64,000 nucleotides of DNA from Candidatus Marinacidobacterales bacterium. GTDB taxonomy: Bacteria > Acidobacteriota > Vicinamibacteria > Marinacidobacterales > DATDRI01. A model generated the notes under the pieces. The model saw only the letters and a list, made by a program, of their open reading frames with translations, made no database searches and was not told where the DNA came from. Below, piece by piece: positions 16,226 through 63,795 of the stretch; the first letter of the stretch is position 1; every line of letters starts with the position of its first letter. Position numbers and translations under genes: made by a program. The stretch is taken from the NCBI GenBank assembly GCA_965222425.1, contig CBDCTW010000008.1, positions 178,248-242,247 of the forward strand, given 5' to 3'.

Positions 16226-16255
16226 CCGAAGCGTGAGGTTTGGGGCCGTCCCGTC

Positions 16256-17074
16256 CTGTGCCAAAACTCGGCCCTTTTGAAATAGGCCATAAATCAGCAG
16301 CTTAGTGTTTGTGTTTGCGACCGTGCCAAGGGCCGCAGGCTCTACAATCGTCTTGGGCGGACGGGTCGTCACCATGCAGAAGACCACGTAGGCGAGAGCG
16401 AATATCCAAGCGTGTTCCTGAATCTGTCGCAGCGATAGCGCCCCCATGAGCCTTGATGAAGGTGCTCCACGGCATACTCTTGCTCCGCTCCGGGGCAGGC
16501 GCGATACCGTGCTCGGCGAGGGCCCCCTTGATGGTGTTGCGCCCAAGTTCATATCCGAGGTTCTTGAGTGCGCCCTGCAGGCGCGTATATCCGCATGTCG
16601 GGTTCTCCCGTGCCACACGTACCATGAGCTCACGGACGTCTTTCGCCGTGGGAGGTCGGCCTGGACTCCGATTCTTGGTGCCATCGTACTTGGCTGCGAT
16701 GAGGTAGCGGTACCAGCGCAGCAGCGTAGCGGGTGTGGCAACGGACGCAATCTCGGCCAGCACCCAGCGGCCCAAGGCCTGGGCCTTGACGGCGAGCCTA
16801 CGCCGGTCGTCGTCGGAGAGCCTGAGACGTTTGCCCCGAACCCGGCTCGGAGCACACGGTTCTCCTCTCGCAGTTAGTCAATCACGTCCTGCTGCTGGCG
16901 GTTGACATAGCCAGAACGAGCAGTAAGAATTGCACATGGTACGTCATGATGGAGCTGAAGATAACACCCTCGGGCCAGACGATTGTAAAGCCCACGGCCC
17001 TTGACCTAGTCGCAAAACACAGACTCTAAGTGCCTGATTTATGGCCTATTTCAAAAGGGCCGAGTTTTGGCACA
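16256..17074 (-). mobile_element. Internally deleted, non-autonomous derivative of the IS481-like element ISx. Both termini are present and only the N-terminal third of the transposase survives.
   Basis: TGTGCCAAAACTCGGCCC... at 16256 and ...GGGCCGAGTTTTGGCACA at 17074. The interior jumps from near the right end (..GTTCCTGAA) directly into transposase codons (TCTGTCGCAGCGATAGCGCC...). Compared against the intact copy at 50485-51902. Confidence 0.7.
16302..16775 (-). pseudogene. ISx transposase fragment (helix-turn-helix N-terminal region only).
   Basis: [83 protein letters not shown]... matches residues of about 70-210 of the ORF at 50608-51678. Confidence 0.7.
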
Positions 17075-17202
17075 GGACGGGGTGTGGCCTGGGATTACTT
17101 GAACGACGCCCGCTAGGCTTTACTCACCAACTTTCCATTGACGTTTGACAACACACCCTAGTCTGGAACTAATCGGCTACTTGGTTAATACGGGAGGGAT
17201 CT

Positions 17203-18486
17203 ATGCCACCATCGGTCTTCCCCACCGGGGTCACCATCTACCGGCCCGAGGAAGCCTACAACTGTTTCGTGTTGCACGAAGGACGAGACGCGAGGTCGTA
17301 TCTCATCGACATGAACGGGAACGACGTCAAAGTCTTCGATTATCCTGGCTTCCCGGCGGAGATGATAGAGCCCCGACTCGCCAAGGGTGAGCGTGGTCAC
17401 GTACTTCTTCAAAAGGAGCCCGAGAGAAGTAGAAACAAGACGTTGTTGGAAGTGGATTGGGACGGCAACATCGTGTGGGAGTGGGGGAAGAAGGCGCCCG
17501 GGGGGTTGGCTCTCCAGAACCACGACCTGGCCCGACTGCCCAATGGCAACACGCTCGTTCTCTCCTACATTAGCCTGGGCGGACCAGAGGCCGAGCTCGG
17601 CCAGACCCGAATTCGCGGCCAGGCCATCTACGAGGTCAACCCGGACGGAGACGTGGTGTGGCAGTGGCTCCCGTCTGAGCATCCGGATTGGGCGGTGCTT
17701 TCCAATGAGGCGAAAGAACTGGTCCAGAATGGTCGGGTACGGGCGAGATCCTTGTTTCTGGGTTTCAATACGATATCTCCTCTTGGCCAGAACAAATGGT
17801 ACCGGGAGGGCGACGAGCGGTTTCATCCGGACAATATTTTCGTGTGCTCTCCGGGGTGGAATTTCATTGGGATCATCGAGAAAAAAACGGGAGACTTCGT
17901 CTGGAGCATGGGTCCCGACTACCCCGGCGCTCACGATTATTCCCAGAGCAGCTTCAGCGGAAAGCTGCCCCGGCCGGTGGACCAGCTTTCCTTTCAGCAT
18001 GACGTGCACTTGATTCCCGAAGGATCGCCGGGAGCAGGAAACGTGCTCGTCTTCGATAACGAGGGGCCGGGTGGGGTTCCGCCGTTTTATTTAGAGCTCT
18101 TTCAAGGCTCGAGGGTGTTGGAGCTCGATCCCATCACCAAGGAGATCGTCTGGCAGTACGACGCATCGTCTTCCCAACAACCCTACTGGAACTTCTTCAG
18201 CCCCATCATCAGTAGCGCGAGGAGACTACCCAACGGGAACACCCTGATCGACGAGGGCACTCACGGGAGAGTCTTTCAGGTCACTCCTGACGGCGAGATC
18301 GTTTGGGAGTACGTCAACCCTCACTTCGGGAGACACACCGGTATCCGCCATCAAGAGGAAGCGCAGATGATGGTCAACTGGGTCTTCCGGGCCCAGCCCG
18401 TGCCTTATGATTGGGTGCCGGAAGGGACGCCGCACTCGGAAGATCCGGTGATCCCACCCAAAGTGTCAGACTTCCGTATCAAATAG
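17203..18486 (+). CDS. Arylsulfotransferase (ASST) family beta-propeller protein.
   Basis: Repeated LPNGNTL motifs and overall similarity to the ASST family. ATG at 17203. Confidence 0.6.
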   Translation: MPPSVFPTGVTIYRPEEAYNCFVLHEGRDARSYLIDMNGNDVKVFDYPGFPAEMIEPRLAKGERGHVLLQKEPERSRNKTLLEVDWDGNIVWEWGKKAPGGLALQNHDLARLPNGNTLVLSYISLGGPEAELGQTRIRGQAIYEVNPDGDVVWQWLPSEHPDWAVLSNEAKELVQNGRVRARSLFLGFNTISPLGQNKWYREGDERFHPDNIFVCSPGWNFIGIIEKKTGDFVWSMGPDYPGAHDYSQSSFSGKLPRPVDQLSFQHDVHLIPEGSPGAGNVLVFDNEGPGGVPPFYLELFQGSRVLELDPITKEIVWQYDASSSQQPYWNFFSPIISSARRLPNGNTLIDEGTHGRVFQVTPDGEIVWEYVNPHFGRHTGIRHQEEAQMMVNWVFRAQPVPYDWVPEGTPHSEDPVIPPKVSDFRIK

Positions 18487-18500
18487 CGAGAGGCGATCCG

Positions 18501-19442
18501 ATGGACCGAAGGACGTTCTTGAAAGAAGCGGCCGTCTTCTCCACCGCCTTGTCGGCACCGTCAGCTCTCAGTCGCAGCGCGGAGGCTCTTGGATCGTCCA
18601 AAAGCTTGGTGGCGATCGAGCTCGTTGGAGGCTCGGACGGTTTGAATACGGTCGTCCCCTACACGAACCCCGACTATTACGCCGCCCGCCCCAAGCTGGC
18701 TATCCCGGCTAAGAAAGTGCTCAAATTGACAGACATGTTCGGGTTCCACCCTGCTCTGGCACCTCTGCGGGAGCTTTACGACCGGGGCGATGTGGCGATC
18801 GTCCATGGAGTCGGCTACCCCAACCCAAGCCGCTGTCATGTGAGATCGGGATCGATTTGGCACACCGGATGTCTCGACGGCAGTAATGGGAACAGTGACT
18901 GGTTCCAGGACTTTCCGAGTGCGGCGGTCCGCACGAACCAGACGCTAGGAGCCACGTTGAGTCACGTGGTTGGCGCCCTGCGCGCCGACTCGCCGGCAAA
19001 GATCTTCCACGTGAGGATGAAGGGGTTCGATACTCACGCAAACCAGGCGGAGACGGAAAATCCCGAGCGGGGTATACACGCCAATCTTCTCGCTAGACTA
19101 GCCTGGGAAATCAAGGCCTTCTGGGACGACGTTCGAGCGCTCCGGAAACAGAACGAAGTGCTGGTCATGACGCTGAGCGAATTCGGGCGTCGGGTTCGGG
19201 AAAACGCCACCGCCGGAACCGATCACGGAACTGCCAACCAAATGTTCCTCATCGGAGGCTCGGTGAAGCCCGGCTTTCATGGGAAGCATCCCGGGCTGGG
19301 GAAGGATGAAACCGATCTGGTGGGCGATATGGTTCACACCGTGGATTTTCGAAGTGTCTACTCCACGGTGCTTGCCCGTTGGCTGGGTGGGGATCCGATT
19401 GCCACTAGGGGCGAGCCTTTCAGACTCCTCGATTTCGTGTGA
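18501..19442 (+). CDS. DUF1501-family protein with a twin-arginine (Tat) signal.
   Basis: MDRRTFLKEAAVFSTALSA...GYPNPSRCHVRSGSIWHTG...GTDHGTANQMFLIGG. Confidence 0.65.
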   Translation: MDRRTFLKEAAVFSTALSAPSALSRSAEALGSSKSLVAIELVGGSDGLNTVVPYTNPDYYAARPKLAIPAKKVLKLTDMFGFHPALAPLRELYDRGDVAIVHGVGYPNPSRCHVRSGSIWHTGCLDGSNGNSDWFQDFPSAAVRTNQTLGATLSHVVGALRADSPAKIFHVRMKGFDTHANQAETENPERGIHANLLARLAWEIKAFWDDVRALRKQNEVLVMTLSEFGRRVRENATAGTDHGTANQMFLIGGSVKPGFHGKHPGLGKDETDLVGDMVHTVDFRSVYSTVLARWLGGDPIATRGEPFRLLDFV

Positions 19443-19555
19443 GGTCGACGATCTTGCCTCGCATCATCCGCTTCGGTTTGCGGCAACGCGTCCGGCCGAT
19501 ACTCCGGCAGCTCGACATTTTAACTTGAACCGTCATGTCCACCATCACATCGACC

Positions 19556-20211
19556 CCCGTCCTGTGCCAAAACTCGGCCCAGCCGGCATCAATGCAAGAA
19601 CTGCGGCTCTTGAAATCAGGCAAAACTCCAGCATACGAACAGGTTACGCGGCGGCCACCAACACTTGACTGCGGAAGCACACATCGGTGGAGCGGTTGCG
19701 TGTCCTTCATCGTTATTACTAGTGGGCACCCTGAGCATCAGCGGGGGAACCGTCTGGCGCAGTGGGCTTCTGCTCAGGCTTCATCGTCGTCCTGTGCCAA
19801 AACTCAGCCCTTTTGCGTCATCTCCGAAAATGCGAACGGAGCCGAAAGCCCGAATCTTGGAGGTGTTGTCGAAATTCGCGGAGACCCGCCGACGCGCGGA
19901 TGAATAAATAGAAGGCACAACCCCTCTATCACCACTATCCGCCCTATGCTTCCCGTCATCACTCCATTTCGGGCGGTTTCCAACCCTGATCCCGTCTTGT
20001 GCCAAAACTCGGCCCTTTGGAATAGACCGCAAATCAGCAGCTTAGACGCCCTTGGAATCCGCGCAGAATCCAGGGTATTTCGCGCCGCAGGACTGGCTTC
20101 CGACCCCTGGGCTGCGGGTGGCGGGCGACAGGCCCACCGGGGGTGCGCACGGCTGGCTCAAATCGGCTGCGGGGCGAGCTGCAGGCAACGAACTGCGCAC
20201 CCGGAAGAAAT
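19556..20211 (+). repeat. Mosaic of IS-end fragments. It contains a 25-bp ISx left end (19556-19580) and a 126-bp chimeric MITE-like unit (TGTGCC...GGCACA) at 19798-19923. That unit is an ISx-type end fused to a family-D interior and a family-E end. The mosaic also contains a 215-bp F-type repeat at about 19992-20211.
   Basis: Hand alignment of the ends against 50485-51902, 26304-27655, 43947-43975 and 63578-63795. Confidence 0.6.
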
Positions 20212-20556
20212 ACGTATCCGACCGCGATGCCAGATTCAAGCAGCCCTCGGAAAGGTGCAAACTGCTGACCCGCTGGGCGTTCGAGTATTTTGACCAGACG
20301 GCGCGGCGTTCACTCTCTCGAAGCGGCGCCTGGCGCTCGTCCGGTGTGTCGTCGCGGCGGACCAGCCGACCGCCTGGCAGGGCCGGGCCGAGCTCGTGGC
20401 TCAAGGTGCGAGGGTGCCGGAGAAGGTAGAGCTCCCGTGGCTGGCGGCTTGGCTCATACCGGATTTAGGGGACGCGCTTGAGGTCTTGGACTGGCTCGGG
20501 GACGCCGAGAGGTGCATCGCCGTGGGCACTCCTAGGATGGCGGAGTAGGGCCGACG

Positions 20557-20823
20557 ATGAACGATGACTACAAAGCCGACCTAGATCGGTTCTTGGACGA
20601 AAGGCAATCTGATGAGGACTTCGCTAAGGCTGACAAGAGAGAGCGTGAGCACGAGGCGAAGCTGCTGATCGATAAGGCATATAAGGGGTTGTCCAAAATG
20701 TTCCCCGTCGATCAAGTGGTAGAGCTAATACCAACGTGTAACTTCTTTGAAGAATTGGGCTTCACTATCGAAGAGGCGCGGGGGCTCGCTATTTCACATC
20801 TGAACGACAAACGGGATGAGTGA
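20557..20823 (+). CDS. Small acidic hypothetical protein (88 aa) in a local low-GC patch.
   Basis: MNDDYKADLDRFLDERQSDEDFAKADKREREHEAKLLIDKAYKGLSKMFPVDQVVELIPTCNFFEELGFTIEEARGLAISHLNDKRDE. No recognisable family. Confidence 0.3.
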   Translation: MNDDYKADLDRFLDERQSDEDFAKADKREREHEAKLLIDKAYKGLSKMFPVDQVVELIPTCNFFEELGFTIEEARGLAISHLNDKRDE

Positions 20824-21299
20824 ATTGACTGACTGGCACATGATCGGCTTTTGGGCTGGCTCTCTGATCGCGGAAACGGTGCGGATTATAGGTTCGTGTA
20901 TCGCCTGGGCGATCCTCCTCGCTGGATAGACTTTTTGTGGAGCACAACCAGTCGGGCGTATGGCGTGCGGCGGGTCACTGTGTAGTAATCCTCGATGAGC
21001 TCACTCTGGAAAAAACTTCGGTTCGTGAGAGAAAGGTCAGATAGAGTAACGATGACCGGGGCTGCCACCTATCTTCAACTGGCCCCGGGACATCACCGAT
21101 ACCAGGTTTATATCGATGTCTATGAAGACGGCTCTGCTCAGAACGACACTGAAACAATGGAGATATATCGGCCTAATCACGGGAATCACGCTGGGCCTGC
21201 TTTTGGTGGGATTTCTCAACCTTCCTGACAGGCACCGTCCGGCATCCGATTTTCCGTTTTCTCGAGCCGCGGTTTGCCGAAGCGCGGCGGCATATCAGA

Positions 21300-21412
21300 G
21301 TCTACGAATGCATAGCTTGTCACACGGAGCCCCAAGGTGCGCCGCGAGCTGGGCGTTTCCGAGCGCCGTGCGTGCCGGGTGCTGAAGCAGCCTCGCGCGA
21401 CGCAGAGGTATG
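21300..21412 (+). pseudogene. Remnant of an IS3-family OrfB N-terminus, cut off by IS256 copy A.
   Basis: ...VRRELGVSERRACRVLKQPRATQRY is the typical IS3 OrfB helix-turn-helix start. It ends at the IS256 target duplication. Confidence 0.4.
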
Positions 21413-22812: not shown

Positions 22813-22827
22813 GAGGTATGTGCCGAA

Positions 22828-22990
22828 GGGTGCTTGCGCTGTTTGCTGTTGGTGATGTGTACGCATCCCTTTGCAAAAAAGGCGCTTACGCTCCATTTAG
22901 CGCGCAGCGAAGGTCGTGAGCGCTGTTTTGGCTGTAATTTAATGCACCGTAAAGTCCTAGCGTCATTTCACCAATACTTTACAATCTCCT
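22828..22990 (+). repeat. MITE-like repeat of about 170 bp, copy 1. The 3' end has diverged.
   Basis: GGTGCTTGCGCTGTTTGCTGTTGGTGATGTGTACGCATCCCTTTGCAAAAAAGGCGCTTACGCTCCATTTAGCGCGCAGCGAAGGTCGTGAGCGCTGTTTTGGCTGTAATTTAATGCA.... Inverse orientation relative to the copies at 30347 and 31559. Confidence 0.6.
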
Positions 22991-23083
22991 CGGGCACACG
23001 AGACGATTTTGACTCTTGTTCAGGGAGGGTGTTATCTAGCTTAATCGAAAGGAGTGGACATGGATCGCGGCAGTGAATGCACG

Positions 23084-23539
23084 ATGAGGCGACTTGTCAA
23101 GACGACACTGGTCATCACTCTGTGGGCCAGCTTTACCTTGCCATGTTTCGGAATGCCCGAGAGCGGAGCTCAGGGATCTGGGAACGACCTCCTCGGCGTC
23201 TGGAGCATGAAGACATACCATTTCCAGGGCGAAGACTACCCGGCCAAGGGGCTTCTTATATTTACGGAGAAGTACTTTTCTATCAACGTGAGCTTCCAGC
23301 TCGAAGAACGTGAGTTGGCGGATCTGACTGTCGACGTGGGAACATACACCATGGGGCCAGGGAACAAAGTGACGTACAAGGTGATGCTCGCCAGCGCCAT
23401 CCGTCCCGGTGACAAGGCTTCCCCAATTCAGCAACCCCCGACAGGCGAGCCGGAGACCGGAACGTACGCGCTTGACGGGGACAAGTTGACGCTTACCTTC
23501 GTCACGGGCAACTGGTTTGTTGCCGAACGGCTCGAATAG
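23084..23539 (+). CDS. Lipocalin-like domain protein with a signal peptide.
   Basis: MRRLVKTTLVITLWASFTLPCFG...LLGVWSMKTYHFQGEDYP.... Confidence 0.5.
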   Translation: MRRLVKTTLVITLWASFTLPCFGMPESGAQGSGNDLLGVWSMKTYHFQGEDYPAKGLLIFTEKYFSINVSFQLEERELADLTVDVGTYTMGPGNKVTYKVMLASAIRPGDKASPIQQPPTGEPETGTYALDGDKLTLTFVTGNWFVAERLE

Positions 23540-23557
23540 CGTGGAACCGAAGCTTAG

Positions 23558-25351: not shown

Positions 25352-25544
25352 GTCAGATCCAAGGACTGCCGCGAAGGTCGCTTGTGATCCGCAAAAAAGA
25401 AGATCGCGAATTGACGGGCAGACAGCCATGGGAGTTGAGGTCCTGCGAACTCGTGTTCGCCTCGGTGGAGGTTCTGCACTTTGTCGCTGCCGGGCCACCG
25501 ACGCAATAACGTGCCCGAGAAAGAACGCGTTGTTCCCCGCGGGA

Positions 25545-25620
25545 AGCTCGTCCTGTGCCAAAACTCGGCCCATTTGAAATAGACCATAAATCAGCAGCTT
25601 AGTGTCTGTGTTTCCGACTG
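25545..25620 (+). repeat. Solo ISx left-end fragment.
   Basis: GTCCTGTGCCAAAACTCGGCCCATTTGAAATAGACCATAAATCAGCAGCTTAGTGTCTGTGTTTCCGAC. Confidence 0.7.
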
Positions 25621-25711
25621 GGCAGCGAGTTGCGATCTTCTTTATTGCGGACGACAGCCGGTCTGATCTCCACCTTCGGCCAGCCCGGCGCGGATCGCCT
25701 ATAATCCGGCC

Positions 25712-26203
25712 ATGCGCTCATTGCTGAAGATTGCCCTTGGCATTGCCGCACTAGTCGTGGCGTTCGGGGCCGGGTGGCTCGTCGCGATCACCGGCACCGG
25801 TCAAGCCATCCCCCTGGAGTCACTCTCGGAACTCGAGCGGGGGTTCGCCGAGCGGATGCAGAACGTGGTGCTTACCGGCCACTACACGCTCAAAGGCCGT
25901 AAGCGTCGCGACGACAAGCCGGAACGCTACGAGATCACCAGAGTGGCAAAGGTCGGCGAGCACCGTTGGCGGTTCGACGTTCACATGACCTACGGGAGTG
26001 TCGACATGACGCTGCCGGTCGTCGTGCCCATCCGGTGGGCGGGTGATACCCCCATAGTCACCATTACGGACATGGTCATCCCAGGGCTCGACGGTACCTT
26101 CACGGCGCGGGTCATGTTTTACGCGGAACGGTACGCTGGCAGCTGGCAGCACGTCGAGTACGGTGGGCTCATGTACGGCACGATCGCGCCGCTGAGCGAC
26201 TAA
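25712..26203 (+). CDS. Hypothetical protein with an N-terminal transmembrane anchor.
   Basis: MRSLLKIALGIAALVVAFGAGWLVAITG.... No recognisable family. Confidence 0.35.
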   Translation: MRSLLKIALGIAALVVAFGAGWLVAITGTGQAIPLESLSELERGFAERMQNVVLTGHYTLKGRKRRDDKPERYEITRVAKVGEHRWRFDVHMTYGSVDMTLPVVVPIRWAGDTPIVTITDMVIPGLDGTFTARVMFYAERYAGSWQHVEYGGLMYGTIAPLSD

Positions 26204-26303
26204 GATGAATTTGCTGCTGCATTGAATGGACAGATGCCGCAGTTGATTACTTGCGGGGGCTGTTCGACGTTCCCGACGCGCTGCGTCGTGCTCCGCTGCG
26301 AAG

Positions 26304-27655
26304 CGCGTCCTGTCCGAAAACGCGAACGGAGCGGCAAGGTCGAATCCTAGAGGCGTTCTCAAAATTCGCGGAGACCAGCCGACGCGGTACTGGCTCTGCG
26401 ATAGGCGACCCCGAGCAGACCTCTCCTGCAGACCATCCGTTCCGTCCAACTGGCGCGCCCGAACTCCTATGCGGCGTCGCGGTGGTAATAGCTGAGCAAG
26501 CCGCCCAATCGCTTACGACATCGCACCTTCCCGTGAGGACTGCCGACGCATTCTTCCGCTTCGAGCAACGCGTTCCCGAGCCCTTGATGGTTGCGCTTTC
26601 CGTGATAATGATGGATGAACTCAGCGACGGCACGGCGCAGCGATGGCTCACTGAAGAAGATCATCCGCTCCAAGCACTCGCTCTTGATCGACAAAACAAA
26701 CCTTTCGACGTAAGCGTTCAGATTCGGAGAACGGTGCGGCAGCCGAATGACGTCCGTTCCGGCGTGCTCGAGCAAATCGCGAAACTCCGTGGTGAACTTC
26801 TTGTCGCGGTCCACGACGAGGAATCGCTTGCCGCGCAGAAAGCCGTCGAATGGGTCGGTGAGATTCCGACCGACCTGCATCATGAACGGGCCATCCGGCC
26901 CCGGAGTGATTCCGGCAATGTGTACTTTTCGCGAAGACAGCTCGATGACGACGAGCACATAGTAGGTCACGAGCCTGCGAACTGTGGCGACCTCGACGGT
27001 GAAGAAGTCGGTCGCCGCAACGGTTTCCCAATGGGCGGCGAGAAACGTGCGCCATGGCGTTCGCTCACTTCGCTCCGGCGCAGGCTCGATGCCATGTTCT
27101 CGCAGAATATTGGCGATGGTGCTCCTGGCTACCGCATGGCCGAGATTCAACAGGGCGCCGCGAATGCGTGTATACCCCCACCTCGGATTCGACTTCGCCA
27201 TCCCTACGACGAGCTTGCTAATCTCGGCCATGACCCGGGGCCGTCCGGGCTGTTTCCGCCGCTCGCTGTAGTCCCACTTCCGCGCAATCAGCCTTTGGTG
27301 CCAAGCCAGCAGGGTTTCCGGTGTGACGATACCGGCGACTTCTGCCAAGAGTTTCCGACCAAGCGCCTTACCCTTTACCGCCAGCCGACGTCGCTCGTCG
27401 TCTGTGAGACGAAGCTTCCTCCCGCAAAGCCGAGCTTTGAGGACTTTGTTCTCCTCGAGCAAGTAGACCATAGCGGCCTGTTGGTCACGCTGGAGCCAAC
27501 CAGCGATGGCGACGACCAACAAGGTCAAGGGCTGGACCGGCGTGCTCATGATCGAGAATTCTAGCTCCCATTGGCCAATCAAGCGTAGATACGTCTATTC
27601 CGAAACGTCCCGGCGAGCTGGTCTTGAGTTCGTTTGTATTTTTGGACACGACGCG
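26304..27655 (-). mobile_element. IS481-like insertion sequence, family D (about 1.35 kb).
   Basis: Ends CGCGTCCTGTCCGAAAACGCGAACGGAGC... and ...GTTCGTTTGTATTTTTGGACACGACGCG are imperfect inverted repeats. Single transposase ORF. Confidence 0.65.
26467..27582 (-). CDS. Transposase with helix-turn-helix and rve integrase-core domains (IS481-like).
   Basis: ...VYLLEENKVLKARLCGRKLRLTDDERRRLAVKGKALG...LVVDRDKKFTTEFRDLLEHAGTDVIRLPHRSPNLNAYVERFVLSIKSECL.... Confidence 0.75.
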   Translation of the reverse strand: MIGQWELEFSIMSTPVQPLTLLVVAIAGWLQRDQQAAMVYLLEENKVLKARLCGRKLRLTDDERRRLAVKGKALGRKLLAEVAGIVTPETLLAWHQRLIARKWDYSERRKQPGRPRVMAEISKLVVGMAKSNPRWGYTRIRGALLNLGHAVARSTIANILREHGIEPAPERSERTPWRTFLAAHWETVAATDFFTVEVATVRRLVTYYVLVVIELSSRKVHIAGITPGPDGPFMMQVGRNLTDPFDGFLRGKRFLVVDRDKKFTTEFRDLLEHAGTDVIRLPHRSPNLNAYVERFVLSIKSECLERMIFFSEPSLRRAVAEFIHHYHGKRNHQGLGNALLEAEECVGSPHGKVRCRKRLGGLLSYYHRDAA

Positions 27656-27762
27656 TACGCCGATGTCATCTATGTCTCCAAGAGGACTCCTAAGGAGACG
27701 GAAGCGTGCGGGCCGAAGGCCACAACCCGGACCACCGCATTGATGAGCTAGAGAGACGAGCT

Positions 27763-29493: not shown

Positions 29494-29504
29494 GAGGCGC
29501 CCCC

Positions 29505-29590
29505 GTCCTGTGCCAAAACTCGGCCTTTTTTAAATAGCCCATAATTCAGCTGCTTAGTGTCTGTGTTTGCGACCGGGCCAAGGGCGGCAA
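29505..29590 (+). repeat. Solo ISx left-end fragment.
   Basis: CCCCGTCCTGTGCCAAAACTCGGCCTTTTTTAAATAGCCCATAATTCAGCTGCTTAGTGTCTGTGTTTGCGACCGGGCCAAGGGCGG. Confidence 0.7.
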
Positions 29591-43946: not shown

Positions 43947-45040
43947 TGTGCCTTCTATTTATTCATCCGCACGCACCAAACTTGATTAATCTCCGGTCTG
44001 CCAGCACCATGCCGGCATGATTTCGTCGTTTGTTCGCGCTCTCATCTCTGCCTTCAAGGCTCGTCGCGAGCTGGCTCTCGAGAATGTCGCTCTTCGGCAG
44101 CAGCTCGCCGTCCTCCGCCGTTCCGTGAAACGGCCGCGGCTCTCGAATGCCGACCGCGGGTTTTGGGTGCTGTTGCGCAGAATCTGGACTGACTGGGAGA
44201 GCGTCCTCGTCATCGTGAAACCTGAGACGGTCATCCGCTGGCACCGTTGTGGGTTCAGACGATATTGGACTTGGAAGAGCCGACGGCGTAGGCCCGGACG
44301 ACCAGGCGTCGCTCCCGAAATACGTGAGCTGATACGGAACATGAGCAGGGCCAACCCTCTCTGGGGAGCTCCCCGCGTGCATGGCGAGCTGGCGAAGCTA
44401 GGCATCTCCATTTCCCAGGCAGCCGTCTCCAAGTATAGGGTTCGCCATCGCATGCCACCGTCCCATACTTGGCGGAGCTTTCTCGATAATCATGTAAAGG
44501 ACTTGGTGTCGCTCGACTTTTTCACTTTGCCGACCGCAACCTTCAGAGTTCTGTTCATCTTCATCGTCCTTCGCCACGACCGTCGCCGTATCGTTCATTT
44601 CAATGTCACCGAACATCCTTCTGCCGAGTGGACGGCGCAGCAAATGGTCGATGCTTTTCCATGGGACACGGCGCCTCGGTACCTGGTACGGGATCGAGAC
44701 CAGACCTACGGAGCGTACTTCGATACTCGCGTCGACGGTCTCGGGATAGAGCAGGTCCTTACCGCACCGCGCTCCCCGTGGCAGAATCCATTTGTCGAAA
44801 GGATAATCGGCTCCATTCGACGTGAGTGTCTCGACCATGTGATTGTCCTCGACGAGCGGCACCTGAGGCGAATCCTACGCAAATACGTCGACTACTATCA
44901 TTCGTGCCGGACTCATTTGTCGCTTGAGAAGGACGCGCCCGAGCCTCGCCGAGTAGAGTCACCGGCGATGGGCAAAGTCAGTGCCATTCCAAAGGTCGGT
45001 GGTCTCCATCATTGTTACACTCGACGCGCTGCTTGAGTCC
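43947..45040 (+). mobile_element. IS481-like insertion sequence, family E. The left end and the transposase are present, but the right end is not recognisable.
   Basis: Left end CCTGTGCCTTCTATTTATTCATCCGC.... The matching right-end motif (...GCGGATGAATAAATAGAAGGCACAGG) is seen only at 19899-19923 and 55438-55462. Confidence 0.55.
44017..45036 (+). CDS. Transposase with helix-turn-helix and rve integrase-core domains (IS481-like).
   Basis: ...[65 protein letters not shown].... Confidence 0.75.
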   Translation: MISSFVRALISAFKARRELALENVALRQQLAVLRRSVKRPRLSNADRGFWVLLRRIWTDWESVLVIVKPETVIRWHRCGFRRYWTWKSRRRRPGRPGVAPEIRELIRNMSRANPLWGAPRVHGELAKLGISISQAAVSKYRVRHRMPPSHTWRSFLDNHVKDLVSLDFFTLPTATFRVLFIFIVLRHDRRRIVHFNVTEHPSAEWTAQQMVDAFPWDTAPRYLVRDRDQTYGAYFDTRVDGLGIEQVLTAPRSPWQNPFVERIIGSIRRECLDHVIVLDERHLRRILRKYVDYYHSCRTHLSLEKDAPEPRRVESPAMGKVSAIPKVGGLHHCYTRRAA

Positions 45041-45248
45041 GATCCGCTCGGAACGGCTGCCGGACTTCGCACCAGCTTACACCTCTACCCCTGAGTAGAG
45101 CCGACGCCGGCTCTTAAAACGTCCTACATGAAGACGACCAAAGCATCCTGGTTGCAGGAAGTTCGCCAATCTCATACAGCTCAAGTTTATGGAAGGGACA
45201 CCTGATGGAGCGGGGCGCCGGTATCGTAACGCCGGGGCGTGTCGCAGC

Positions 45249-50476: not shown

Positions 50477-50484
50477 TCCAGTCC

Positions 50485-51902
50485 TGTGCCAAAACTCGGC
50501 CCTTTTGAAATAGGCCATAAATCAGCAGCTTAGTGTCTGTGTTTGCGACTGGGCCAAGGGCCGTAGGCTTTACAATCGTCTGGCCCGAGGGTGTTATCTT
50601 CAAATCCATGATGACGTACCATGTGCAATTCCTACTGCTCGTTCTGGCTGGCTGGGTCAACCGCCAGCAGCAGGATGTGATCGACTACCTGCAAGAGGAG
50701 AACCGTGTGCTCCGAGCCGGGCTTCGGGGCAAGCGTCTCAGGCTCTCTGACGACGACCGGCGCAGGCTCGCGGTCAAGGCCCAAGCTTTAGGCCGCGAGG
50801 CGCTGGCCCAGATTGCGTCCGTTGCCACACCCGCTACGCTTGTGCGCTGGTACCGCCACCTCATCGCAGCCAAGTACGATGGCAGCAAGAACCGGAGCCC
50901 AGGCCGACCTCCGACGGCGAAGGACATCCGTGAGCTCATTGTGCGCGTGGCGCGGGAGAACCCGACGTGGGGATATACGCGCCTGCGAGGCGCACTCAAG
51001 AACCTCGGACATGAACTCGGACGCAACACCATCAAGAGGCTCCTCGCCGAGCACGGTATCGCGCCGGCTCCGGAGCGGGGCAAGAGCATGTCGTGGAGCA
51101 CTTTCCTCAAGGCTCATTGGGGCGCCATCGCTGCGACAGACCTGTTCACCGTCGAGGTTGTGAACCCGTTCGGGCTCGTCCGCTACCATGTCCTGTTTGT
51201 CATCGATATCGCCACTCGCTGCGTGTGCATCGGTGGGATGACCTCGGACCCAAACGGGGAGTGGATGAAGCAGGCGGCAAGAAACCTCACGGACGTGTGG
51301 GATGGTTTCCTCCTTGGCAAGCGGTACCTCATCCACGACCGGGACCCGCTATTCACCGAGGCGGTACATGGGCTCTTGAGAGATTCAGGTGTGAAGCCCC
51401 TCCGCCTTCCCGCTAATAGTCCGAATCTGAACGCATACGCGGAAAGATTCGTTCTCTCCATACGTCGAGAGTGTCTCGACCGCTTCGTACCTCTCAATGA
51501 GCGACACCTGCGGACAGCGGTAACCGAATACGTAGTGCACTATCACACAGAACGGAATCACCAAGGTCTCGGCGACGAGCTCCTCACACCTCTGCCGGCA
51601 AGCGCGAATGACGCTGGCCCCATCGTGTCGCGAGAGCGACTTGGGGGCATTCTCAACTACTACTGCCGTGCCGCGTAGATGGTCGCCGGCGACGGTAGCC
51701 CCTCGGCGGGCTCGACCGGCGTAGCGTGGAAACAGCTTCAGGAACATGCTTCGATATTCGCTCTCGACTAGGTGGTCATCTGCATGGTGACGACCCGCCC
51801 GCCCAAGACGATTGTAAAGCCCACGGCCCTTGGCCCGGTCGCAAACACAGACACTAAGTTGCTGATTTATGGCCTATTTCAAAAGGGCCGAGTTTTGGCA
51901 CA
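50485..51902 (+). mobile_element. Intact IS481-like insertion sequence, ISx (about 1.42 kb), with unusually long inverted ends.
   Basis: The ends, matching over about 95 bp, read TGTGCCAAAACTCGGCCCTTTTGAAATAGGCCATAAATCAGCAGCTTAGTGTCTGTGTTTGCGAC...GGGCCAAGGGCCGT.GGCTTTACAATCGTCT and the reverse complement at 51902. Flanked by GTCC/GGAC. Confidence 0.8.
50608..51678 (+). CDS. ISx transposase (helix-turn-helix and rve integrase core).
   Basis: [38 protein letters not shown]...[50 protein letters not shown].... Confidence 0.8.
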
Positions 51903-51905
51903 GGA

Positions 51906-52013
51906 CGGGGTCGCCTATCGCAGAGCCAGTGCCGCGTCGGCTGGTCTCCGCGAATTTCGACAACGCCTCTAGGATTCGAGATTTCGGCTCTGTTCGCATT
52001 TTCGGACACGACG
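51906..52013 (-). repeat. Solo end fragment of a family-D-like IS, directly abutting the ISx right end.
   Basis: The reverse complement aligns to 26304-26410 (...GGTCTCCGCGAATTT.GA.AACGCCTCTAGGATTCGA...). Confidence 0.55.
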
Positions 52014-55018: not shown

Positions 55019-55462
55019 TGTGCCTTCTATTTATTCATCCGCGCGCCCAGAACTTGATTGATCTCCGGTCTGTCGGCACCATGCCTGCATGGTTTCGTCG
55101 TTCGTTCGCGCTCTCATCTCTGCCTTCAAGGTTCGTCGCGAGCTAGCTCTTGAGAATGTCGCTTTTCGGCAGCAGCTCGCCGTCCTCCGTCGTTCGGTGA
55201 AACGGACGCGGCTCTCGAATGTCGACCGCGGGTTTTGGGTGCTGTTGCGCAGAATCTGGACTTACTGGGAGGGATGTGTCCCGAGGTTCGTGGAAAAAGA
55301 ACGACGCGCCCGTCCTGTGCCAAAACTCGGCCCTTTTGAAATAGCCCACAAATCAGCAGCTTAGACGCCCTTGGAATCCGGGCAAAATCCAGGGTATTTC
55401 GCGCCGCAGGGCTGACTTCCGACACCCATGAGCTGGCGGATGAATAAATAGAAGGCACAGGC
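55019..55462 (+). repeat. Nested IS debris. A 5' fragment of a family-E IS lies at 55019 to about 55267 and includes 62 N-terminal transposase codons. The left inverted repeat of IS256-family G lies at 55268-55310. A 145-bp chimeric MITE-like unit lies at 55318-55462, with an ISx-type end at one side and a family-E-type end at the other.
   Basis: CCTGTGCCTTCTATTTATTCATCCGC... at 55019. GGGATGTGTCCCGAGGTTCGTGGAAAAAGAACG is the reverse complement of the flank at 57520-57555. The MITE-like unit reads TGTGCCAAAACTCGGCCCTTTTGAAATAGCCCACAAATCAGCAGCTTAGACGCCC...GGATGAATAAATAGAAGGCACAGG. Confidence 0.55.
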
Positions 55463-59107: not shown

Positions 59108-59221
59108 TGCTCCTGGAGTAGGGGCAGGTCTTTTCTCCGCCCTCCGATGCCCCGCGATCGCGTGAGGCCAAAATACTCATGTGGCTTCCCGATGGTAGAA
59201 ACGTAGCAGCCCGCCAAGCCC

Positions 59222-59360
59222 GTCCTGTGCCAAAACTCGGCCCTTTTGAAATAGACCATAGATCAGCAGCTTAGTGTCTGTGTTTGCGACCGGGCCAAGG
59301 GCCGTAGGCTTTACAATCGTCTGGCCCGAGGGTGTTATCTTCAGATCCATGATGACGTAC
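59222..59360 (+). repeat. Solo 5' fragment of ISx, about 140 bp, reaching to the transposase start codon region.
   Basis: GTCCTGTGCCAAAACTCGGCCCTTTTGAAATAGACCATAGATCAGCAGCTTAGTGTCTGTGTTTGCGACCGGGCCAAGGGCCGTAGGCTTTACAATCGTCTGGCCCGAGGGTGTTATCTTCAGATCCATGATGACGTACCA. Confidence 0.7.
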
Positions 59361-59416
59361 CACGTGAAGTCTCCTCGGGAAACTTCTAGACCCGGCGAGC
59401 TGGTTCGCACACCGCC

Positions 59417-60482
59417 ATGAGTAGCTTGATGAAAGCCGTCCGCTGTCACCGCTACGTCGGTCTCGACGACCAGGGGCGACCCCTGGCGACTCCGGCTTCG
59501 CTCCGAGAGGCCCTCTCGTTGGACGAGATTCCGCCACCGGCCTGCGAACCGGGGCAAGTGTTGGTTCAAACTCGGTATGCCGGTGTGCAGTATCCGGATG
59601 CCCTGCAGGCGCAGGGCCTTTACCAGCAGCGGCCACGGCTTCCGTATGTGCCAGGGATGGACGTGTCGGGCATGGTCCTGGAGCTAGGCGATGGTGTCGA
59701 CGGGTTGGCGGTGGGCGACGAGGTCTTCGCGCAAATGAGCGTGGGCGGTTTGGCCGAGGTCGCCGCTGCGCCGGCGTCGTCGGTCTGGCCGGCGCCGACC
59801 GGGGTCCCCCTGTCTGCGTGTGCGAATCTGGGGCGAAACTTCTTTCCAGCCTACTACTCCTTGAAGATTCTCGGTGAGGTCACGGCAGGAGATCTGGTGT
59901 TGGTCGATGGAGCGTCCGGGGGGGTGGGGATGGCGGCGGTGGAGCTGGCGAAGGCGATGGGTGCATCAGTGATCGCTGGCGTCAGCGTCCCGGACAAGAA
60001 GGAGTTTGCGACCGCCGCTGGCGCCGACCGAGTGCTCTGCTACGGTCGAGACGGGCGACAGTTACCGCACGTTCAAGACGGAGGTGAAGCAAGCGGCCAC
60101 CGAGCTCGGCCACTCGGAGGGCGTCGACGTCGTGATCGACATGGTGCAGGGAGAGCTCTTCGAGGCGGCGCTCATGTCGGTGATCCGACCGCTCGGACGG
60201 ATCTGTCTCGTCGGCTTCACTGCGGGACAGAAGCCGATCCGCCCTGGGTTGTTACTCATCAAGGAAGCGGCTGTCATCGGGAGTCTCTGGAGTGGATGGG
60301 CTGGTCGCCATCTGCGCGAGCATCAACAGAACGTGGCGGAGATCATCGACTTTCTGGCGACCGGCCGGGTCCAGCCGCGTGTCGACCAGGTGTTTCCGCT
60401 CGAGAGTTTTCTCGAGGCGTTCGAGCTGTTCGAAAACAACCGTGGGCGGGGGAACACGGTCGTCAGCTTCGCTGAATCCTGA
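59417..60482 (+). pseudogene. Zinc-type alcohol dehydrogenase or NADPH:quinone oxidoreductase (MDR family), frameshifted near 60040-60060.
   Basis: ORF 59417.. reads ...GASGGVGMAAVELAKAMGASVIAGV...GADRVLCYGRDG and then an out-of-frame Arg-rich tail. ORF 60006..60482 carries the in-frame C-terminus (...VDVVIDMVQGELFEAALMSVIRPLGRICLVGFTAGQ...NRGRGNTVVSF). Confidence 0.6.
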
Positions 60483-60930
60483 CGCCGCGCGACCCCAGTG
60501 GAGGTGGGATAGCTAGTCGCAGGGCGTCAGCACACGCGGGCGTCGACGCCGAAACGCCGGTAGTTGTGATACATGGCCGTGGCCATCAAGCGGTTGTCGC
60601 CGGTCGCTTAGGCCTCTCTCATCTCGACGGGGACCCACACCCCCCAGCCGCTTGTCGAGCGCATAGCTAATCGCGAAGTTGACATCGATCCTCCGGTTGT
60701 CCCGCTCCAGCTCGGCCCCGCGCCGACATGTGTCCAGTCTCCGCCACCGTATTCCCCTCTCATGGCAGTTCTAAACCGCGCAATCGACGCTGGATCGACT
60801 TCTTGCGGAGCACAGCCGCGCACGCGTCGTGTCCGAAAAAGCGAATGGGACACTTCTCCCTTCATCGTAGGGTGCTCCGAATAAATAGCGGAAAAAAATA
60901 GGTTATAACCTACATAAGACGGATCGGTTA

Positions 60931-61061
60931 GGTGCTTCCGCAGTCAAGTGTTGGCGGTCGCCGCGTAACCTGTTCGCGTGCTAGAGTTTAACCTGATTTC
61001 GAGAGGCGCAGTTCTTTCGTCGATGCCGGCTGGGCCGAGTTTTGGCACAGGACGGGGACCC
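60931..61061 (+). repeat. Diverged partial copy of the 170-bp MITE-like repeat at 60931 to about 60960. It is followed by a solo ISx terminus (GGGCCGAGTTTTGGCACAGGACGGGG) at about 61031-61061.
   Basis: GGTGCTTCCGCAGTCAAGTGTTGGCGGTCG... and CCGAGTTTTGGCACAGGACGGGG. Confidence 0.5.
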
Positions 61062-63389: not shown

Positions 63390-63795
63390 TCCATTGGCGA
63401 ACCAAGCGTAGACACATCTAATTCGAAACGTCCCGGCGCGCGTGTCTTGAGTTCGTTTGTGTTTTTGGACACGACGCGGTAGCTCGGACCGGCGCAATGC
63501 GTCGCATCGCTGGGCGACATTCGTGCGGAATCACGCAAAAGCGGTCGTCGCTGCGGATTTCTTCAACGTCGTCCTGTGCCAAAACTCGGCCCTTTTGAAA
63601 TAGACCACAAATCAGCAACTTAGACGCCCTTGGAATCCGCGCAGAATCGAGGGTATTTCGCGCCGCAGGGCTGGCTTCTGACCCCTGGGCTGCGGGTGGC
63701 GAGCGACAGGCCCACCGGGCGTGCGCACGGCTGGCTCAAATCGGCTGCGGGGCGAGCTACGGGCAGTGAATTTCGAACCCGGAAGTCCCTCATTA
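63390..63795 (+). repeat. IS debris at the end of the window. A family-D-like end fragment lies at about 63390-63478 and a 215-bp F-type repeat at 63578-63795.
   Basis: ...GAAACGTCCCGGCGCGCGTGTCTTGAGTTCGTTTGTGTTTTTGGACACGACGCG. The F-type repeat TGTGCCAAAACTCGGCCCTTTTGAAATAGACCACAAATCAGCAACTTAGACGCCCTTGGAATCCGCGCAGAATCGAGGG... aligns to 19992-20211. Confidence 0.55.

What the first reader, a model, noticed from the sequence alone, without database searches (positions are those of the whole stretch)
19556..20211. A superfamily of IS481-like elements sharing TGTGCC termini, one with about 95-bp inverted ends, and chimeric MITE-like derivatives built from the ends of different ISs
Three transposase-encoding elements end in TGTGCC...GGCACA: ISx at 50485-51902, D at 26304-27655 and E at 43947-45040. 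ISx has unusually long, near-perfect inverted ends of about 95 bp. At least 8 solo ISx ends occur. They lie at 25545, 29505, 59222, 61031 and 19556, beside an internal-deletion derivative at 16256-17074. Two short non-autonomous units combine termini of different families. A 126-bp unit at 19798-19923 joins an ISx-type end, a family-D interior and a family-E end. A 145-bp unit at 55318-55462 joins an ISx-type end and a family-E end. Such chimeric MITEs suggest cross-mobilisation between related transposases, or abortive transposition and recombination among these ends.
Basis: seen in the sequence. Interest (0 to 1): 0.5.

Follow-up and report, generated by a model that had tools for sequence, protein, structure and literature searches.

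The report
Hybrid-ended IS relics with shifting junctions
The flagged stretch is a pile-up of three broken, transposase-less relatives of one insertion-sequence family that litters marine Acidobacteria genomes; one of the two "chimeric" units belongs to a real multi-copy family with two unlike ends, and the ends of this family carry no target duplications and are joined to different neighbouring DNA in near-identical strains.

Summary
The repeats are real. TGTGCCAAAACTCGG occurs 13 times in the window (0.12 expected) and in more than 112 8-kb stretches of Candidatus Marinacidobacterales genomes. Several details are wrong. The ISx-type ("X") end starts 5 nt outside TGTGCC, at CGTCC. D ends in TGTCC and its gene is on the minus strand. 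E runs to 45200, with an imperfect right repeat, not to 45040.

Window 19556-20211 holds three X-ended fragments in one orientation. The 145-bp unit at 55311-55459 belongs to a family with one X end and one E end: 14 copies, 95% column identity, at least 7 assemblies. Three further size classes exist. The 127-bp unit at 19788-19919 is a singleton and is probably a nested scar.

No target duplications flank 80 X/X or X/E units, whereas 6 of 7 IS256-like copies in the same data have 8-bp duplications. X ends abut a target motif, (G)A(C/T)CC|, independently at each end. Of 54 units with a recognisable uninterrupted copy of a flank, only 2 sit in contiguous DNA. Contigs more than 99.5% identical to the window show three X-end junction changes, including a 267-bp deletion ending exactly at an X end.

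Verdict: a new variant of a known kind (IS481/IS3-like elements with MITE and cassette derivatives). The end behaviour is unusual and unexplained.

The parts
19558..19787 (+). X-ended fragment, interior subtype B. CGTCC at 19558-19562 and TGTGCC at 19563. Its inner side is cut off by the next unit.
   Evidence: About 240 nt match L041, L026 and L107 at 89-90%; an inverted copy lies at 60932-61057. The uninterrupted continuation after 19787 is seen in L010 and L107. In strain contig L117 the DNA outside this end is different.
19788..19919 (+). 127+5-bp three-part chimera: X end (19788-19815), D left end (19815-19896, with TGT mutated to TCT) and an inverted E left repeat (about 19891-19919).
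   Evidence: (D13, I17). It has no second locus in the 112 loci or in metagenome contigs and no flanking repeat. It is present unchanged in strain contigs L117, L118 and L120.
19993..20301 (+). X-ended fragment, interior subtype C, long form. The terminal pentamer is the variant CGTCT; TGTGCC is at 19998.
   Evidence: 98% identity over 315 nt to L003 and L073. The first roughly 118 nt are the X part of the 142-bp hybrid family (D7/D8, 38).
16252..17079 (-). Internally deleted ISx copy, 818 bp between the TGT...ACA ends, with its transposase remnant on the minus strand.
   Evidence: (I3, I4, I19). The DNA outside its left end differs between the window and strain contigs L118/L120.
25549..26305 (+). 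X end (about 75 nt) plus a 163-aa passenger ORF (25712-26203). This is the left part of an X...E cassette and is cut off by D.
   Evidence: 99.5% identical to L106:5516-4758, where the unit continues for 68 nt into an inverted E left repeat.
26306..27653 (-). Element D, 1348 bp, with ends CGTCC-TGTCC...GGACA-CGACG. The transposase gene is 26467-27582 on the minus strand.
   Evidence: The DNA to its right is not the continuation seen in L106.
29504..29585 (+). Solo X end of about 80 nt that abuts a 5'-truncated Na+/H+ antiporter gene.
   Evidence: (I13). Strain contigs L113/L118 keep 267 bp more of the gene between the flank and the same X end.
43947..45200 (+). Element E, complete at 1254 bp. 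The transposase gene is 44017-45036. The left repeat is TGTGCCTTCTATTTATTC and the right repeat, as reverse complement, is TGTCCCTTCCATAAAC.
50480..51907 (+). ISx, full length. The transposase gene is 50608-51678. The inverted ends are about 100 nt long. The left terminal pentamer is the variant AGTCC.
   Evidence: The left flank is a fragment of an IS256-like gene whose uninterrupted copy lies at 57173-57576. The right flank is a D left-end fragment.
51908..52013 (-). D left-end fragment of about 106 nt that abuts the ISx right end.
   Evidence: (I11). The same D/X junction is present in L089.
55019..55271 (+). 5' fragment of a second E copy: the left repeat plus the first roughly 180 nt of the gene.
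   Evidence: (D6).
55311..55459 (+). Hybrid-ended miniature element: X end of subtype C (about 120 nt) plus an inverted E left repeat (24 nt).
   Evidence: Member of a 14-copy family with 95% mean column identity, different flanks and at least 7 assemblies.
59221..61054 (+). Segment bounded by an X end of ISx-left type (59221-59366) and an inverted X end of subtype B (60932-61054). It encloses an alcohol-dehydrogenase-like ORF (59417-60475).
   Evidence: (D2, I8). There is no flanking repeat. Whether it moves as a unit was not tested.
63570..63785 (+). X end of subtype C, long form, running towards the end of the window.
   Evidence: (D7, D8).

Best explanation
SHOWN: what the region is
- The window comes from a Candidatus Marinacidobacterales-type genome. 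It is saturated with one superfamily of single-ORF DDE (rve_3) insertion sequences related to IS3/IS481.
- There are two terminus types. The ISx/D type starts CGTC(C/G)-TGT(G)CC. The E type starts directly at TGT(G/C)CC.
- Window 19556-20211 is a graveyard of three transposase-less X-ended pieces. The middle piece is a singleton produced by nested insertion: a D end inside an X end, then an E end against D.
- The family has produced many non-autonomous derivatives. These include X/X miniatures, X...X and X...E cassettes carrying passenger genes, and hybrid X/E miniatures that multiplied as units.

SHOWN: how the ends behave
- X (and D) ends do not sit in simple insertions with target duplications.
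- Each X end is joined on its own to DNA ending in (G)A(C/T)CC, at sites that natively continue (A/C)G(T/C)C.
- Junctions are still being re-made. In near-identical strains the same X end is attached to different DNA. One case is a 267-bp deletion that starts exactly at a solo X end.

INFERRED: mechanism
- Transposase supplied in trans acts on single X ends. It drives one-ended or intramolecular strand transfer into preferred pseudo-sites that resemble the end junction (GACCC|CGTC).
- This gives adjacent deletions, and probably inversions.
- It would explain the excess of solo ends, the missing duplications, and the mosaic joining of ends from different family members.
For: Family and abundance
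- 284 X ends, 94 E left ends, 41 D-left and 79 D-right ends in 0.96 Mb.
- Transposases.

End boundaries
- X ends: across 89 occupied/uninterrupted comparisons, the flank matches its uninterrupted copy 81-96% at -12..-6 and 36% at -5.
- D ends show the same 5-nt offset. E and F ends start at TGT.

Target motif
- Uninterrupted sites show A 58%, C 58%, C 76%, C 61% at -9..-6, then G 57% and T 48% at -4 and -3.
- ISx-left and ISx-right ends carry the same motif.

No duplications
- Scans of 3-8 nt at offsets 0-15 found nothing in 39 X/X pairs, nor did scans of 2-6 nt in 41 hybrids.
- Scans of 4-60 nt found nothing in 80 units compared with a rotated control.
- Controls from the same data: 6 of 7 IS256-like copies have exact 8-bp repeats, and IS3-like copies have 3-4-bp repeats.

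Non-contiguous flanks
- Only 2 of 54 units with a recognisable uninterrupted flank copy sit in contiguous DNA.

Strain-level changes, in contigs more than 99.5% identical to the window
- A 267-bp deletion into the antiporter gene ends at the X end at 29504. The old junction is CTCTCCCC|CGTCC; the new one formed at the native site GGCGCCCC|AGTCG.
- Different flanks at 19558 and at 16252.

Hybrid families and recombinants
- Hybrid families.
- Recombinant full-length element L104.
- Passenger-carrying units.

Background
Against: - No transposition event of any X-ended unit was observed directly.
- Uninterrupted flank copies can only be recognised when the flank is itself a repeat, so the contiguity statistic is biased towards IS-dense, much-rearranged DNA.
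- The 267-bp deletion lies between two CCCC runs. Host replication slippage or microhomology-mediated repair, with no transposase, could also explain it.
- A classical two-ended intramolecular attack would predict that about half of the ends lack the motif. That is not seen, so the one-ended step is a deduction, not an observation.
- Two hybrid units (L077:5964-6267 and L110:1794-1967) do sit in contiguous DNA, with possible 2-3-bp repeats. One full-length E copy (L087) has a 5-bp repeat. Ordinary insertion therefore also occurs.
Confidence: 0.6

Rival explanations
1. One reading: the short units are chimeric MITEs built from ends of different ISs and moved by cross-mobilisation. One transposase uses both an X end and an E end, or the two transposases cooperate.
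For: - X/E units occur in four discrete size classes with different flanks.
- 14 copies of the 142-144-bp class share 95% column identity across at least 7 assemblies, with several copies per genome.
- L104 carries an E transposase gene between an E left end and an X right end.
Against: - The ISx and E transposases are only 30% identical.
- The two ends share only TGTGCC, and their cleavage boundaries differ by 5 nt.
- The two ends have different flank motifs and there are no duplications.
- Only one full-length hybrid was seen. Native E has its own right repeat.
- The unit inside the flagged coordinates is a singleton.
Confidence: 0.3
2. Nothing here is mobile any more. All short units and solo ends are scars of old nested insertions, trimmed by host recombination. 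The flank motif is only an old insertion preference.
For: - The 127-bp unit is unique.
- Many elements are visibly inserted into one another.
- No duplications are found.
- The 267-bp deletion lies between CCCC microhomologies.
Against: - Full-length ISx copies are 95-97% identical with intact ORFs in several genomes.
- The miniature families are 95% alike in column identity and multi-copy within single genomes.
- Three junction changes map exactly to X ends within about 17.6 kb shared at more than 99.5% identity (window 16241-33836), while other ISs behave canonically.
Confidence: 0.25
3. The X end with its flank (GACCC|CGTCC, a GAC-N3-GTC palindrome) is a site for a site-specific recombinase or another enzyme, not a transposase substrate. 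Junction switching is secondary-site recombination.
For: - Uninterrupted sites resemble the junction on both sides of the break point.
- Each end acts alone, with no duplications.
Against: - The only gene inside ISx is a DDE transposase, with roughly 100-nt inverted ends typical of an IS.
- No recombinase gene was found linked to X ends. DUF2924 and HTH passenger genes occur only in some units.
- D ends share the 5-nt offset but their uninterrupted sites lack the GTC arm.
Confidence: 0.1
4. The discontinuities are assembly artefacts: repeat-induced misjoins in metagenome-assembled genomes.
For: All comparison sequences are MAGs or metagenome contigs full of repeats.
Against: - The same junctions recur in independent assemblies. 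Examples are the IS256-like|X junction in the window and L068, the D|X junction in the window and L089, and the window junctions in L118 and L120.
- IS256-like copies in the same assemblies keep perfect 8-bp duplications.
Confidence: 0.05

Closest known systems
IS481 family (ISfinder). Definition recalled from my own knowledge: single-ORF IS3-like DDE transposase, about 1-1.3 kb, ends starting TGT, 4-15-bp duplications.
   Same: - A single ORF with HTH_32/HTH_21 plus an rve-type DDE core. The catalytic residues sit at D177, D244/246 and E279.
- Element sizes of 1.25-1.43 kb.
- A TGT...ACA motif at or near the ends.
   Different: - The proteins score 97 and 83 bits against the 224-bit cut-off of NF033577.
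- RefSeq names the plasmid homologues only 'integrase core domain-containing protein'.
- X and D ends carry 5 further nucleotides outside TGT.
- ISx has roughly 100-nt inverted ends.
- No duplications were found.
IS3 family
   Same: The transposase scores about as well against the IS3 model (84-85 bits). It has a leucine-zipper-like N-terminus and a DD(35)E core.
   Different: There is no two-ORF frameshift arrangement. True IS3 copies in the same window have the ALIL frameshift pseudoknot and 3-4-bp duplications.
Bacterial MITEs and mobile insertion cassettes (IS ends around no gene, or around passenger genes)
   Same: - Short multi-copy units bounded by IS ends, without a transposase gene.
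- Some units carry passenger ORFs: a 163-aa ORF, an ADH-like ORF, DUF2924, and an HTH protein.
- The cassette concept is used in ISsaga (PMC3129680, listed).
   Different: The two ends belong to different family members and are not inverted repeats of each other beyond TGTGCC. There are no target duplications.
TIMEs: mosaic non-autonomous Tn3-derived elements (PMC4133298)
   Same: Miniature end-bearing elements that capture neighbouring DNA and generate mosaic non-autonomous transposons.
   Different: TIMEs have homologous 38-bp inverted repeats and make 5-6-bp duplications. The units here have unlike ends and no duplications.
Transposon-promoted adjacent deletions and replicative inversions (Mu, Tn3, Tn5; PMC2723962)
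   Same: A deletion that starts exactly at the element terminus and runs into adjoining DNA. Copies lack matching duplications.
   Different: - Here a solo 80-nt end with no partner is involved.
- The new junctions show an asymmetric motif at every end and short homology to the old junction.
One-ended or surrogate-end transposition (ISEcp1, IS911 targeting of end-like sequences).
   Same: A single genuine end can act, and target sites resemble the end.
   Different: Those systems still give duplications or defined second ends. No such behaviour has been reported, to my knowledge, for this transposase group.

Membership tests
IS481 family | The transposase reaches the curated family model cut-off (NCBIfam NF033577, 224 bits). 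| tested here: not met
   ISx scores 96.9 bits and E scores 83.1 bits. The IS3 model gives similar sub-threshold scores.
IS481 family | A single ORF encoding an rve-type DDE transposase, with no frameshift. | tested here: met
   ORFs of 356, 371 and 339 aa carry rve_3 and HTH_32/HTH_21 domains. The DDE positions are given.
IS481 family | Terminal inverted repeats that begin with TGT. | tested here: inconclusive
   E starts at TGT. X and D start 5 nt further out, at CGTC(C/G), so TGT is subterminal there.
IS481 family | Direct target duplications of 4-15 bp. | tested here: not met
   None were found in 80 units. One of three full-length E copies has a 5-bp repeat. The IS256-like control was positive.
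MITE | Short, without a transposase gene, multi-copy, and at different loci. | tested here: met
   Met for the 142-144-bp class that includes 55311-55459 (14 copies) and for the 87, 173-174 and 301-305-bp classes. Not met for 19788-19919, which is a single locus.
MITE | Terminal inverted repeats matching those of one autonomous element. | tested here: not met
   One end is X type and the other is the E left type. They share only TGTGCC.
MITE | Flanking target-site duplications. | tested here: not met
MITE | Mobilised in trans by a cognate transposase. | not testable with these tools
   This needs a transposition assay.
Transposon-promoted adjacent deletion | The deletion starts exactly at the element terminus and extends outwards, and the element is retained. 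| tested here: met
   L113/L118 against the window at 29504: 267 bp of the antiporter gene are lost and the X end is unchanged. The definition is taken from PMC2723962.
Transposon-promoted adjacent deletion | Dependence on the transposase. | not testable with these tools
   The CCCC microhomology allows a host-only route.

The most novel reading that the evidence does not exclude
X-type (and D-type) ends of this IS group are single-end recombination substrates. A DDE transposase supplied in trans repeatedly re-joins one end to pseudo-sites of the form GA(C/T)CC|NGTC without making target duplications. This deletes or inverts the neighbouring DNA and stitches together ends of different family members. 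If so, this is a one-ended, motif-guided mode of IS-driven genome reshaping, active now in large marine Acidobacteria genomes, and it has not been described for IS3/IS481-like elements.
Probability: 0.3. Interest if true: 0.7.

Novelty: new variant of a known kind. Interest (0 to 1): 0.5.

Why it matters
- The group shows how a very abundant, officially unnamed set of IS3/IS481-like transposases behaves in nature.
- It generates miniature elements and gene-carrying cassettes with unlike ends.
- Its ends mark sites of ongoing deletion and flank exchange between near-identical strains.
- If the one-ended, duplication-free joining is transposase-driven, it would add a mechanism to the repertoire of DDE elements. 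It would also help explain gene truncation and rearrangement in these 8-10-Mb genomes.
- For annotation: the usual rules for calling IS and MITE copies (paired inverted repeats plus target duplications) would miss or mis-delimit most copies of this family.

Tried and rejected
1. Target duplications. Scanned at every offset 0-15 and lengths 2-8, then lengths 4-60 with slack. No signal above rotated controls.
2. A palindromic target, or a palindromic CG duplication, that would make the flanks look like an extension of the inverted repeat. Rejected because uninterrupted sites continue (A/C)G(T/C)C, not GGGT, and because position -5 comes from the element.
3. 'E has an X-type right end by nature.' Suggested by L104, but rejected once the E right repeat TGTCCCTTCCATAAA was found in the window, L001 and L087.
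4. Reciprocal junctions expected from replicative inversion. Only a few ambiguous cases were found in the sampled loci.
5. Exact-protein look-ups for the E and ISx transposases, the arylsulfotransferase, the PD40 protein and the ADH. None were on record.
6. Metagenome scan for the D/E junction of the 127-bp unit. Zero hits.
7. Rfam. No RNA family matches any X, D or E end.
8. A literature search for the host order found nothing.
9. The L114/L119 breakpoint inside D is not at an IS end and was not pursued.
10. No search was made against ISfinder, because no such tool is available. An existing name for these ISs therefore cannot be excluded.
Full report
CHECKING THE OBSERVATION

The 15-mer TGTGCCAAAACTCGG, allowing up to 2 mismatches, occurs 13 times in the window. 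Ten copies are on the + strand and three on the - strand, against 0.12 expected. The E-type 26-mer occurs 4 times against 0 expected. The repeat finder recovers the same families.

ISx has TGTGCC at 50485 and GGCACA ending at 51902. It encloses a 356-aa ORF (50608-51678) with rve_3, HTH_32 and HTH_21 domains. Its two ends are 96% identical over the first 100 nt or so, so the claim of inverted ends of about 95 bp holds. The segment 16257-17074 is an 818-bp internally deleted copy in the opposite orientation.

- D ends in CGTCC-TGTCC...GGACA-CGACG (26306-27653), not in TGTGCC. Its transposase ORF is on the minus strand at 26467-27582.
- E has no terminus at 45040. Alignment of the 3' regions of four E copies shows a shared right end ...TTTATGGAAGGGACA. 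In the window this ends at 45200, so E spans 43947-45200, with an imperfect right repeat.
- The X terminus is not TGTGCC (see "Where the ends really are" below).

WHERE THE SEQUENCE COMES FROM

Almost all lie in about ten Candidatus Marinacidobacterales (Acidobacteriota) assemblies of 6-10 Mb. These 112 loci plus the window make 0.96 Mb. They hold 284 X ends, 94 E left ends, 41 D-left and 79 D-right ends, and about 100 ends of a further type, which I call F (TGTGCTCCGC...).

Parts of the window are 98-99.5% identical to loci of two of these assemblies.

One 90%-identity cluster holds 1511 member sequences. The only source names are generic, such as 'transposase InsO family'. RefSeq calls the plasmid homologues 'integrase core domain-containing protein'. 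Against NCBI's curated models, ISx and E score 97 and 83 bits for IS481 (cut-off 224) and 84-85 bits for IS3 (cut-off 160). ISx and D are 53% identical; ISx and E are 30% identical. The group is therefore IS3/IS481-like in architecture but fails the one formal membership test available here.

WHERE THE ENDS REALLY ARE

All 13 window copies, and about 96% of 210 exact copies in the wider sample, are preceded by CGTCC. Conservation then decays over a further six positions, with consensus CGA(C/T)CC.

I took every X end whose outer flank is itself a repeat and compared it with copies of that flank that lack the X end. This gave 89 distinct comparisons.
- At positions -12 to -6 the flank and its uninterrupted copy agree 81-96%.
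- At -5 they agree 36%.
- From position 0 inwards agreement is at background level.

So the element begins at the C of CGTCC, 5 nt outside TGTGCC. The A(C/T)CC next to it is target DNA.

Uninterrupted sites also show G (57%) and T (48%) at the second and third positions after the break. The preferred site therefore reads about GA(C/T)CC|(A/C)G(T/C)C, which resembles the finished junction GACCC|CGTCC.

D ends have the same 5-nt offset. E-left, E-right and F ends begin exactly at TGT, and E shows a weak G(G/C)C| preference. ISx-left and ISx-right ends carry the same flank motif.

WHAT LIES IN 19556-20211

The stretch holds three X-ended, transposase-less pieces in the same orientation.
1. 19558-19787 is an X end with interior subtype B. 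About 240 nt are shared with L026, L041 and L107, and an inverted copy lies at 60932-61057. Its inner side is cut off by the next unit. The uninterrupted continuation is visible in L010 and L107.
2. It consists of 23 nt of X end, then a D left end starting with its own CGTC (82 nt, 84-91% identical to D copies), then an inverted E left repeat.
   - The X/D junction is shared with L013.
   - The whole unit has no second locus in the sample.
   - Its D/E junction gave no hit in the metagenome scan.
   - It has no flanking repeat.
3. 19993-20301 is an X end of subtype C, long form. It is 98% identical over 315 nt to L003 and L073.

THE HYBRID FAMILIES

The other unit, 55311-55459, is different. 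Units with an X end facing an E left repeat fall into discrete size classes:
- 87 bp: 6 copies.
- 142-144 bp: 14 copies.
- 173-174 bp: 8 copies.
- 301-305 bp: 11 copies.

Both flanks differ from copy to copy, and some assemblies hold several copies. The 14 copies of the 142-144-bp class align with 95% mean column identity. These are real multi-copy families with unlike ends.

One full-length element, L104:6010-7364, has the E left end and E transposase gene (94% identical to the window's) joined to the last 165 bp of ISx. Elements of IS length with one D-right-type end and one X end also occur (L006, L030). Recombination between family members is therefore a source of mixed ends.

X...X and X...E units can also carry passenger genes:
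- DUF2924 in L049.
- An HTH protein plus a 341-aa ORF in L051.
- A 163-aa ORF in window 25549-26305 and in L106.
- Possibly the ADH-like ORF in 59221-61054.

NO TARGET DUPLICATIONS, AND FLANKS THAT DO NOT BELONG TOGETHER

Scans for direct repeats gave nothing above rotated controls. This holds at all offsets and for lengths 2-8 and 4-60, across 39 X/X pairs, 41 hybrids, and later 80 units.

The method works. In the same data 6 of 7 IS256-like copies have exact 8-bp repeats, and the IS3-like copies have 3-4-bp repeats once their ends are set at TGAACC.

Of 79 short units, 54 have a recognisable uninterrupted copy of at least one flank. In only 2 of them, both hybrids, does that copy continue into the unit's other flank.

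Examples from the window:
- ISx has an IS256-like gene fragment on its left, whose uninterrupted copy lies at 57173-57576. It has a D left-end fragment on its right.
- D is followed by DNA that is not the continuation seen in L106.

A concerted two-ended insertion cannot place A(C/T)CC| next to both ends unless the target is ACCC|GGGT. The uninterrupted sites are not of that form. I therefore infer that each X-end junction is formed on its own.

In total 173 of 284 X ends have no inward-facing partner within 1.7 kb.

DIRECT EVIDENCE FROM NEAR-IDENTICAL STRAINS

An exact-protein look-up with the 163-aa ORF returned four ENA metagenome contigs. They are 99.2-99.8% identical to window 16241-33836.

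Positive control:
- The IS256-like copy at 21413-22812 is absent from them. The empty site shows a clean 8-bp duplication, GAGGTATG.

Three differences map exactly to X ends.
- A. At 29504, L113/L118 keep 267 bp more between the flank and the same solo X end.
  - These bases are the 5' end of the Na+/H+ antiporter gene. The protein is 662 aa there and 576 aa in the window, where the Pfam match starts at model position 75.
  - The old junction is CTCTCCCC|CGTCC. The new junction formed at the native site GGCGCCCC|AGTCGGAC.
  - This is an adjacent deletion in the sense of PMC2723962. It occurred at an end that has no partner and no transposase gene.
- B. At 19558, inside the flagged region, the window, L118 and L120 have ...ATCGACCCC| outside the end. 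L117 has unrelated DNA ending in ...GCCGACCT|.
- C. At 16252, the window has ...GGGGCCGTCC| and L118/L120 have ...GTGGCCTTCC|.

In every case the new flank fits the motif and resembles the old flank over 4-8 nt.

MECHANISM

Shown:
- The anatomy of the elements.
- The end boundaries.
- The target motif.
- The absence of duplications.
- The non-contiguous flanks.
- Three recent junction changes.

Inferred:
- Transposase supplied in trans acts on single X ends. It gives one-ended or intramolecular strand transfer into pseudo-sites that resemble the junction.
- This produces adjacent deletions and probably inversions.
- It also brings ends of different family members together.

A host-only route, by slippage or microhomology-mediated repair, fits case A equally well. 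It can only be separated from the transposase route by experiment. A site-specific recombinase acting on the GAC-N3-GTC-like junction is a weaker rival, and assembly error is unlikely because the junctions recur in independent assemblies. How the hybrid miniatures multiply, and which transposase moves them, is unknown.

COMPARISON AND VERDICT

The elements work like IS3/IS481-type insertion sequences with MITE and cassette derivatives. Mosaic non-autonomous elements are known for Tn3-derived TIMEs (PMC4133298).

Four features differ from the known families:
- a 5-nt extension outside TGT;
- inverted ends of about 100 nt in ISx;
- families whose two ends come from different members;
- the absence of duplications, together with end-by-end junction switching.

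I rate this a new variant of a known kind, of moderate interest.

Noticed in passing
window 21413-22812 and 39262-40661: Two 99%-identical IS256-like copies lie in inverted orientation 16.4 kb apart. The first is absent from the strain contigs L113, L115 and L116, which show the empty site and an 8-bp duplication GAGGTATG. It is therefore a very recent insertion. An inversion between the two copies is possible but was not examined.
   Followed up: partly
window 4582-5898 and 52427-53743: Two IS3-family copies, each with an ALIL frameshift pseudoknot (Rfam RF01497, 95 bits) at 4912-5028 and 52757-52873. They have 3-4-bp duplications (CTAG and AAG) once the ends are set at TGAACC...GGTTCA.
   Followed up: partly
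window 15139-16225: An IS5-family element (DDE_Tnp_1_5/DDE_Tnp_1, 349-aa ORF) with ends TGCCTTGG...CCAAGGCA. Ten copies at 97-98% identity occur across the loci. No direct repeat was seen with the boundaries I used, and the exact ends were not refined.
   Followed up: partly
window 20946(-), 25383(+), 33531(+), 60814(-); about 100 copies in the loci: A further end type, 'F' (TGTGCTCCGCAAAAA...), whose boundary lies exactly at TGT. It often sits inside X ends (for example in L004, L045 and L077). Its autonomous element and transposase were not identified.
   Followed up: no
L049:5333-6474; L051:2970-5239; window 59221-61054: X-ended units carry non-transposase genes: a DUF2924 protein, an HTH_3/XRE protein with a 341-aa ORF of unknown family, and an ADH-like ORF. 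They are cassette-like, and their mobility was not tested.
   Followed up: partly
window 22829-22979, 30346-30625, 31559-31726: A repeat family of about 150-170 nt, unrelated to the X, D and E ends, is present in direct and inverted copies, partly in tandem at 30346-30625. It is also present in the strain contigs. Its nature is unknown.
   Followed up: no
window 29801-30343 (-) and 55504-57513: An IS66-family transposase fragment and a frameshifted IS256-like (Transposase_mut) gene. They add to the density of decayed ISs around the X ends.
   Followed up: no
loci L001-L112 (contig coordinates): The blocks that hold X ends cluster on the chromosomes. On OZ253507.1, for example, most lie at 7.7-8.7 Mb and 9.98-10.07 Mb.
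   Followed up: no
L099 (Vibrio sp. MEBiC08052), L111 (Saccharibacteria MAG), L058 (Bryobacterales MAG), L019 (Acidobacteria MAG): Single 17-mer matches occur outside Marinacidobacterales. In L019 the match sits about 20 nt from a D-like end and looks like a real relative. The Vibrio and Saccharibacteria hits were not examined and may be chance.
   Followed up: no
L114/L119 at the position equivalent to window 26979; window 31419 and 33836: Three strain-level breakpoints are not at recognised X, D or E ends. One lies inside the D transposase gene. One lies at the edge of a D-derived fragment at 31408-31560. Their cause is unknown.
   Followed up: partly
window 2398-2469: A tRNA gene (Rfam RF00005, 77 bits), unrelated to the finding.
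   Followed up: no
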